From positions 178,622,001-178,686,000 of the forward strand of contig OZ024743.1 of NCBI GenBank assembly GCA_964016885.1: a stretch of 64,000 bases of DNA, read 5' to 3'. The notes beneath the pieces were generated by a model. That model saw nothing but the letters and a program-made list of their open reading frames with translations. It did not search any database and was not told where the DNA came from. This document shows positions 43,157-43,207 of this stretch, in pieces. A program made the position numbers and the translations under genes. Numbering within the stretch: the first letter of the stretch is position 1; each line of letters starts with the position of its first letter. This DNA comes from Eledone cirrhosa (taxonomy: Eukaryota).

Positions 43157-43207
43157 AGCTTCCTGATGATTTCTCACGAATGAAACAGTTCTAGTCCTGT
43201 AGAAGCT
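43157..43207 (+). ncRNA. Type I hammerhead ribozyme with complete stem III
   Basis: agcttc-CTGATGA-tttc(tcac)gaat-GAA-ACAG(ttctagtc)CTGT-A-gaagct; GUA site at 43201. A degenerate relative lies at about 54345-54405. Confidence 0.8.

What the first reader, a model, noticed from the sequence alone, without database searches (positions are those of the whole stretch)
43157..43207. Sense-strand, unmasked hammerhead in the intron separating TM6 from TM7 of the receptor
Seen: intact core, 6-bp stem I, 4-bp stem III and a GUA site. It lies on the transcribed strand 3.8 kb upstream of the last exon, and I found no antisense arm in the window. Unlike the minimal copies, it could fold as a monomer. Inference: cleavage before splicing of the 27-kb intron would uncouple the TM7 exon and could tune receptor output. 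Stem II is short and opens with a U-U pair, so activity may be low.
Basis: partly seen in the sequence, partly recalled or inferred. Interest (0 to 1): 0.7.

Follow-up and report, generated by a model that had tools for sequence, protein, structure and literature searches.

The report
Penelope retrotransposon hammerhead in mGluR intron
The hammerhead ribozyme motif is real, but it is the tail end of a common jumping gene (a Penelope-like retrotransposon) with tens of thousands of similar motifs in this genome; this copy likely landed in the glutamate-receptor intron by chance and likely cuts too slowly to control the gene.

Summary
The motif is as described: a type I hammerhead at 43157-43207 on the sense strand of a 27,393-nt intron between the TM6 and TM7 exons of a metabotropic glutamate receptor. 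No shuffle matched it (0 of 300). It is not gene-specific. It ends a 5'-truncated pseudo-LTR fragment (about 42899-43223, in TA repeats) of a Hydra-clade Penelope-like retrotransposon. The genome holds 1,641 exact copies of its core and 30,674 family matches; its 29 best siblings differ by 2.2-5.9%, and full-length relatives carry the hammerhead just before an RT-GIY-YIG frame. The U-U pair is a family trait, not decay. Loop 3 has a conserved palindrome, so stem III pairs better between two copies (-12.8 kcal/mol) than as a hairpin (-1.4). In flanking context the hammerhead fold is predicted to be rare (about 0.06%). No intact partner or antisense copy lies in 264 kb. A contig from the same species label joins the TM6 and TM7 exons. 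Best reading: a neutral, likely slow transposon relic; regulation of the receptor about 5%. The scan found such relics before elsewhere in this genome. Side finding: a candidate 15-nt microexon at 37948-37962.

The parts
43157..43207 (+). Type I hammerhead motif: stem I 6 bp, CUGAUGA, U10.1-U11.1 plus 3-bp stem II with a variable tetraloop, GAAA, 4-bp stem III with 8-nt loop, GUA site (cut after 43201)
   Evidence: one compensatory stem I pair among 11 hand-picked copies
43185..43200 (+). Stem III plus loop 3, an interrupted palindrome centred on CTAG (43191-43194); predicted 12-bp self-duplex
   Evidence: duplex -12.8 versus hairpin -1.4 kcal/mol; 94 of the first 100 listed family copies keep CTAG (counted by hand)
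42934..43223 (+). 5'-truncated, internally deleted 3' end of the pseudo-LTR of a Hydra-clade Penelope-like element; ends at TATTAAAACT next to a TA repeat, like the 3' pseudo-LTR of a full-length relative
42899..42933 (-). Inverted piece of the element's 'tail' extension (the sequence that follows the hammerhead in longer copies); does not overlap the hammerhead
   Evidence: this arrangement is described for PLEs in PMC8557442
43226..43256 (.). (AT)n tract at the 3' junction, the preferred target type of Hydra-clade elements
   Evidence: PMC8557442
42859..42901 (.). TA-rich tract at the 5' junction
18680..19636 (+). Open frame holding the mGluR exon for the cysteine-rich domain and TM1-TM6 (5' exon edge not mapped); donor GT at 19637
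47030..47371 (+). mGluR exon for TM7 and the C-terminal tail
   Evidence: spliced junction in contigs of runs X4 and X17
37948..37962 (+). Candidate 15-nt in-frame microexon (TGTHE) between TM6 and TM7; would split the intron into 18.3 kb and 9,067 nt, with the hammerhead in the second
   Evidence: 11 of 15 identity to a 15-nt insert at this junction in run X10 of another species; 8 of 500 shuffles match as well; inclusion in this species not seen

Best explanation
The motif is the pseudo-LTR hammerhead of a high-copy Hydra-clade Penelope-like retrotransposon, left as a roughly 325-bp truncated insertion in a TA repeat of an mGluR intron, where it is likely a neutral passenger that is predicted to cut slowly. 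In the full-length element the hammerhead sits just before the RT-endonuclease frame and again at the 3' end (shown). It would cut the element's RNA out of longer transcripts, likely helped by two copies pairing through the loop-3 palindrome (inferred from the literature and from folding). At this locus there is one copy and no intact partner. Flanking hairpins and a stem II register shift are predicted to compete with the active fold. Cleavage would therefore likely be too slow to beat splicing to the exon 3.8 kb downstream.
For: Copy number: 826+815 exact 26-mers; 20,228 with loop 2 free; 30,674 with both loops free; backwards controls 0. The 40 scored DNA candidates (of 2,836) are 94-100% identical over 163 nt. 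The 29 other fetched loci differ by 2.2-5.9% over 43039-43223. Parent: 12 loci picked for long frames from 150 listed protein hits; 5 carry the hammerhead 40 nt before the open frame, 5 carry it 4.5-5.4 kb downstream, 7 have an inverted copy. L020, with the window's loop-2 type, runs straight into the same frame (89% amino-acid identity to L053). Hydra motifs: CxCx5C 12 of 12, CxxC before E 12 of 12, N..CxH 11 of 12, DKT 8 of 12, RWR 7 of 12. In the first 100 listed copies loop 2 has 20 types (commonest 26) while loop 3 is one sequence in 82, so no fixed loop-2 tertiary contact is apparent. Predicted share of the hammerhead fold: 1.4e-2 alone, 5.9e-4 with 20-nt flanks. The spliced TM6-TM7 junction is in a contig of the same species label. 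A related species' unique flank differs by 18 of 232 letters (7.8%) against 2.2% for the nearest sibling, which suggests a young insertion. Slow intronic ribozymes did not affect splicing in Fong 2009, as cited in PMC10919898.
Against: No cleavage rate was measured. Nearest-neighbour folding ignores the core and tertiary contacts and underrates hammerheads (my own knowledge); I had no known-active control. The core is intact and identical to the family. A natural U10.1-U11.1 hammerhead is reported, and U-U is the best-tolerated mismatch there (PMC3088659). A fungal PLE hammerhead with a long helix III cut as a monomer at 0.16 per min in 1 mM Mg (PMC4209133). The junction evidence is one contig at depth 3.1, with library type not on record, from an individual not shown to carry the insertion; it shows that splicing occurs, not how efficiently. 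The age estimate rests on one flank contig. 5 of 59 collected motifs (some loci overlap) have an A-G mismatch at the covarying pair.
Confidence: 0.85

Rival explanations
1. Same transposon origin, but the hammerhead is active enough as a monomer to cut a measurable share of nascent transcripts, lowering full-length mGluR mRNA as an unselected side effect.
For: Intact core; 4-bp stem III; hammerhead-like stems in the bare 51-mer; no masking arm. U-U opens stem II in several other palindromic-stem-III motifs in the held DNA with different stem sequences (window 1151, L033, L047), so it looks selected rather than decayed. Fast intronic ribozymes reduce splicing (PMC10919898 citing Fong 2009).
Against: Competing hairpins on both flanks; free loop 2; low in vitro activity of metazoan PLE hammerheads (PMC4209133); only about a minute of transcription to the next exon at mammalian rates (rate in this animal unknown); exon tethering can splice across a cut intron (cited in PMC5126111).
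Confidence: 0.1
2. One reading: the hammerhead has been co-opted to tune receptor output by racing splicing of the TM7 exon, as proposed for the CPEB3 ribozyme.
For: Sense strand, intact, unmasked, in a likely neural gene, a few kb before the next exon; CPEB3 precedent with a 9,931-nt distance.
Against: No locus-specific change: the 51-mer is identical to many dispersed siblings. About one family motif per 100 kb genome-wide makes a hit in a gene of over 126 kb expected. The gene holds 9 sense and 14 antisense motifs (binomial p 0.40). The insertion appears younger than the split from a related species.
Confidence: 0.04
3. Chance match to a hammerhead descriptor.
For: Rfam score far below gathering; folding z-score 0.11.
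Against: 0 of 300 shuffles; fixed position in the pseudo-LTR of a coding element; compensatory stem I pair.
Confidence: 0.01

Closest known systems
Hydra clade of C-terminal EN+ Penelope-like elements, e.g. Hydra-1_Obim (Craig et al. 2021, PMC8557442)
   Same: Single ORF under 3 kb with RT then GIY-YIG; DKT, CxCx5C linker, CxxC and CxH around the conserved E and N; (TA)n targets; hammerhead in the pseudo-LTR; inverted truncated copy and tail. Stretches of the parent protein resemble the printed Hydra alignment by eye.
   Different: A different family. Hydra-1_Obim's listed hammerhead has a 7-bp stem II and a 1-nt loop 3; here U-U plus 3 bp and an 8-nt loop 3. RWK reads RWR. Three short probes from this family were not found in that paper's supplement.
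Type I hammerheads in PLE pseudo-LTRs (Cervera and de la Pena 2014, PMC4209133)
   Same: Type I topology, position in flanking repeats, many solo truncated copies, opposite-strand pairs, palindromic loop 3.
   Different: Helix III is longer than the 1-2 bp metazoan norm (4 bp plus an 8-nt loop), closer to the fungal and protist PLE variants; G10.1-C11.1 is replaced by U-U.
Conserved intronic ribozymes: CPEB3 HDV-like; RECK and C10orf118 hammerheads (PMC10919898, PMC3088659)
   Same: Sense-strand self-cleaving motif in a long intron of a host gene.
   Different: Those are described as conserved across mammals; this is one copy of a repeat with tens of thousands of copies and looks young.

Membership tests
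Type I hammerhead ribozyme | CUGANGA and GAAA core, A15.1-U16.1, NUH site, three stems with open stem I | tested here: met
Type I hammerhead ribozyme | Pair at 10.1-11.1 (usually G-C) | tested here: not met
   U-U in this family; a natural U-U variant is reported (PMC3088659), so this lowers the expected rate, not membership
Type I hammerhead ribozyme | Covariation in stems | tested here: inconclusive
   one pair (C-G versus A-U) of 13 changes on both sides in 11 hand-picked copies; probably a single event
Type I hammerhead ribozyme | Loop 2 / stem I tertiary contact of fast hammerheads | tested here: inconclusive
   loop 2 has 20 types in 100 listed copies; no conserved partner seen in alignment A1
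Type I hammerhead ribozyme | Self-cleavage after the NUH triplet | not testable with these tools
   only contigs were laid; they cannot show ends
Penelope-like element | Single ORF with RT and C-terminal GIY-YIG endonuclease in full-length relatives | tested here: met
   750-834 aa frames with YRDD and IVY..YIG motifs; Pfam support is weak (GIY-YIG E 0.026, no RT hit); likeness to printed Hydra proteins by eye
Penelope-like element | Pseudo-LTRs with hammerhead, inverted 5'-truncated copy, tail | tested here: met
   L053 self-alignment: direct repeats 1639-2818 / 6333-7518 and an inverted copy 1071-1627
Hydra clade | DKT, RWK, CxCx5C linker, CxxC and CxH flanking E and N, no conserved CCHH | tested here: met
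   against the description; RWK is RWR; no CxxC between the IVY and YIG halves
Hydra clade | Placement in an RT phylogeny with reference Hydra elements | not tested
   reference sequences were only seen in a paper supplement
Non-LTR retrozyme | Tandem repeat units each with a hammerhead | tested here: not met
   single copy; no tandem unit covers it
Domesticated intronic regulatory ribozyme (CPEB3/RECK type) | Conservation at the orthologous intron beyond its flanks | tested here: inconclusive
   no contig of a related species spans the site; divergence figures point to a young insertion

The most novel reading that the evidence does not exclude
This family's interrupted-palindrome helix III lets it cut both as a dimer and, more weakly, as a monomer. 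Unmasked sense-strand copies among its roughly 30,000 motifs, including this one in an mGluR, would then cut nascent transcripts and act as a genome-wide, possibly polymorphic drag on splicing of long-intron genes; here the race would also interact with an alternative microexon 5 kb upstream.
Probability: 0.07. Interest if true: 0.6.

Novelty: new member of a known kind. Interest (0 to 1): 0.13.

Why it matters
As it stands, it shows that an intact, unmasked, sense-strand hammerhead in a receptor intron is expected by chance in this genome, so it is no sign of gene regulation by itself. The family has an unusual build (U-U stem II, free loop 2, long palindromic helix III) that would make a neat test of monomer versus dimer cleavage in Penelope-like elements, whose hammerhead function is still unclear (PMC8557442). 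If monomer cleavage proved fast, thousands of intronic copies could affect host splicing.

Tried and rejected
1) Rfam scan of the whole window: the 150 rows listed of 378 were dominated by microsatellite-driven miRNA matches and held no hammerhead; the local scan gave only a sub-threshold one. 2) repeat finder was swamped by (TA)n. 3) Orthologous site: contigs of X1, X5, X6 and X8 were laid on 42440-43740; none spans the site. X5 has no cover at 43012-43055, and X6 and X8 have none over the hammerhead; holes prove nothing and are not used as evidence. 5) I first read the parent as Neptune-type; the motif test favours Hydra. 6) U-U as a decay mutation: rejected, it is a family trait. 7) A group of 634 copies lacking C3 and the 5' arm of stem I looked like a 'substrate-only' dimer partner; rejected, because it is a dead fragment carried inside a larger unrelated repeat. 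8) Partner or mask in the same pre-mRNA: none intact in 264 kb; the gene's 5' exons were not located, so farther copies are not excluded. 9) PDB search with the parent ORF gave nothing useful. 10) Dye 2006, Fong 2009 and Lunse 2016 are not held and are cited only second-hand. 11) An exact or 3-mismatch search for the microexon found nothing; the relaxed scan found the candidate. 12) Look-ups of earlier findings near this place and by sequence were empty. Literature searches for this family in cephalopods listed only Craig 2021 as relevant; the library lacks most subscription papers, and supplements of the bioRxiv preprint were not seen.

Full report
Observation. The 51 nt at 43157-43207 form a type I hammerhead on paper: stem I AGCTTC/GAAGCT, core CTGATGA, U opposite U, a 3-bp stem II with a 4-nt loop, GAAA, a 4-bp stem III with an 8-nt loop, and GUA with the cut after 43201. 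A strict descriptor finds only this site in the window and nothing in 300 shuffles. Rfam gives only a sub-threshold Hammerhead_3 match. The host gene is a metabotropic glutamate receptor (7tm_3 and NCD3G; best solved matches mGlu7, 3 and 2). The intron runs from GT 19637 to AG 47029; it is 27,393 nt long and the cut site lies 3,828 nt before the acceptor. Further exons lie 8 kb and 79 kb before the window. The host is probably an octopod; this comes from earlier notes and recall, and was not tested.

It is a repeat. A search of the genome with 43060-43222 gave 2,836 candidates; the 40 scored are 94-100% identical. The exact 26-nt core occurs 826+815 times. With loop 2 free the count is 20,228, and with both loops free 30,674; backwards controls are 0. 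That is about one motif per 100 kb. Over 43039-43223 the 29 other fetched loci differ from the window by 2.2-5.9%.

The parent. Three of those loci have an inverted GIY-YIG fragment beside the arm. A search with one of them listed 150 hits, and I fetched 12 chosen for long open frames. Five have the hammerhead 40 nt before the open frame, five have it again 4.5-5.4 kb downstream, and seven have an inverted copy. L053 shows the whole layout: inverted copy, pseudo-LTR, ORF, microsatellite, and a second pseudo-LTR ending at TATTAAAACT plus (TA)n, exactly as the window copy ends. Most of these full-length copies differ from the window arm by about 10-13%. L020, with the window's own loop-2 type, runs straight into the same ORF (89% identity over 185 aa). 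The protein has the motifs that Craig et al. 2021 give for the Hydra clade (passages): CxCx5C and CxxC-E in 12 of 12, N..CxH in 11, DKT in 8, RWR in 7. Pfam support is weak and no tree was built. The window insertion is thus an inverted piece of the tail (about 42899-42933) followed by a truncated pseudo-LTR end (42934-43223), set in TA repeats. This matches the published PLE insertion pattern.

What the family says about the ribozyme. U-U is a family trait, and it also opens stem II in other motif types in the held DNA that have different stem sequences. Perreault 2011 reports a natural U10.1-U11.1 case (passages). Stem I has one compensatory pair among 11 hand-picked copies, though 5 of 59 collected motifs are mismatched there. 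In the first 100 rows (my hand count) loop 2 has 20 types, the commonest in 26 rows, whereas loop 3 is one sequence in 82 rows and keeps CTAG in 94. Nine of those rows are the TTTC type; the eight I fetched lack C3, and six examined further lie inside another repeat. Stem III plus loop 3 is an interrupted palindrome: self-duplex -12.8 against hairpin -1.4 kcal/mol. The full dimer is 10 kcal/mol below two folded monomers, but against the free ensemble the predicted Kd is about 4.5e-4 M, so a lone nascent copy would stay monomeric. A palindromic loop 3 and dimer cleavage are the published pattern for metazoan PLE hammerheads, with low in vitro rates; a fungal one with a long helix III cut as a monomer at 0.16 per min in 1 mM Mg (PMC4209133, parts 1-2 of 4 read; review passages).

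At this locus. For the bare 51-mer the predicted minimum slips stem II onto the core GAA; the exact hammerhead has 1.4% of the ensemble. With 20-nt flanks it has 0.06%, because one hairpin takes the CUGA core and another takes the cut site. These models underrate hammerheads and I had no active control, so this is a hint only. No intact second copy, sense or antisense, lies in 264 kb. Between the first detected exon and the last, a looser scan finds 9 sense and 14 antisense hammerhead-like motifs of several families (p 0.40 for strand bias); at least one is probably chance. A contig of run X4 (same species label, depth 3.1, library not on record) joins the end of the TM6 exon to the TM7 exon, as does X17 from another species. 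A unique flank contig of a related species differs by 18 of 232 letters, against 2.2% to the nearest sibling; this suggests, on one flank, that the insertion is younger than that split.

Mechanism. Shown: identity, family, position, no mask, no partner, a spliced product. Inferred: in the element the hammerhead processes element RNA, likely as a dimer; in the intron it likely cuts slowly. Chen 2024 (passages) cites Fong 2009 that fast intronic ribozymes block splicing and slow ones do not, and at the mammalian rates given there 3.8 kb takes about a minute. Georgomanolis-type review PMC5126111 (passages; author name not checked) cites exon tethering. I put the neutral relic at 0.85, incidental cleavage at 0.10 and co-option at 0.04. 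A 2026 preprint (part 1 of 5 and passages) finds Xenopus retrozymes depleted from introns, yet 42-44% of them still lie there.

Side finding. Run X10 has 15 extra letters at the TM6/TM7 junction. The window intron has one AG/GT-flanked 15-mer with 11 of 15 identity, at 37948-37962, after a pyrimidine-rich tract and in frame (8 of 500 shuffles). It is a candidate microexon; inclusion was not seen in this species. One paper search (listing only) showed nothing on it.

Verdict. Real motif, ordinary origin: a new member of a known kind. Earlier notes of this scan report the same kind of relic elsewhere in this genome. They gave me the Hydra lead, which I then tested.

Noticed in passing
window 37948-37962 (+): Candidate 15-nt in-frame microexon (TGTHE) in the loop between TM6 and TM7 of the mGluR; a similar 15-nt insert is spliced in at this junction in a contig of another species.
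   Followed up: partly
G000:C4 about 178.44-178.52 Mb (L065-L072; about 100-180 kb before the window): Roughly 80 kb without TA repeats or hammerhead cores; the two 10-kb pieces tested are a continuous 30-bp satellite. It lies upstream of the first detected mGluR exon and may be intronic.
   Followed up: partly
L083-L090, L097-L102 (G000:C1): 634 exact copies of a dead fragment of this hammerhead (C3 and the 5' arm of stem I replaced) carried inside a larger composite repeat of several kb with 98-99% identical stretches; carrier not identified.
   Followed up: partly
window 1151, 9055, 15511, 16448 (+); 7054, 13659, 15309, 46081 (-): Other hammerhead-like motifs with short palindromic stem III in the same gene; 7054/9055 flank a GIY-YIG-like frame at 7957-8361 (-).
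   Followed up: partly
window 50261-50311 and 54379-54420 (+): Two decayed partial copies of the same hammerhead family downstream of the last exon.
   Followed up: no
genome-wide: Forward matches exceed reverse (11,145 vs 9,083; 16,380 vs 14,294), unlike the narrower pattern (826 vs 815); possibly one tandem array; unexplained.
   Followed up: no
window 24357-25869: 95-bp tandem array, 15.9 copies, 97% matches, in the same intron.
   Followed up: no
window 12139-13097: 483-bp tandem duplication, 98% matches.
   Followed up: no
window about 33450-36180 (+) and 38475-41240 (-): Broken retroelement-like frames in the same intron; the first has a weak RVT_1 match (E 5.8e-05).
   Followed up: no
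window 10640-10749: Near-perfect inverted repeat of about 110 bp (alignments).
   Followed up: no
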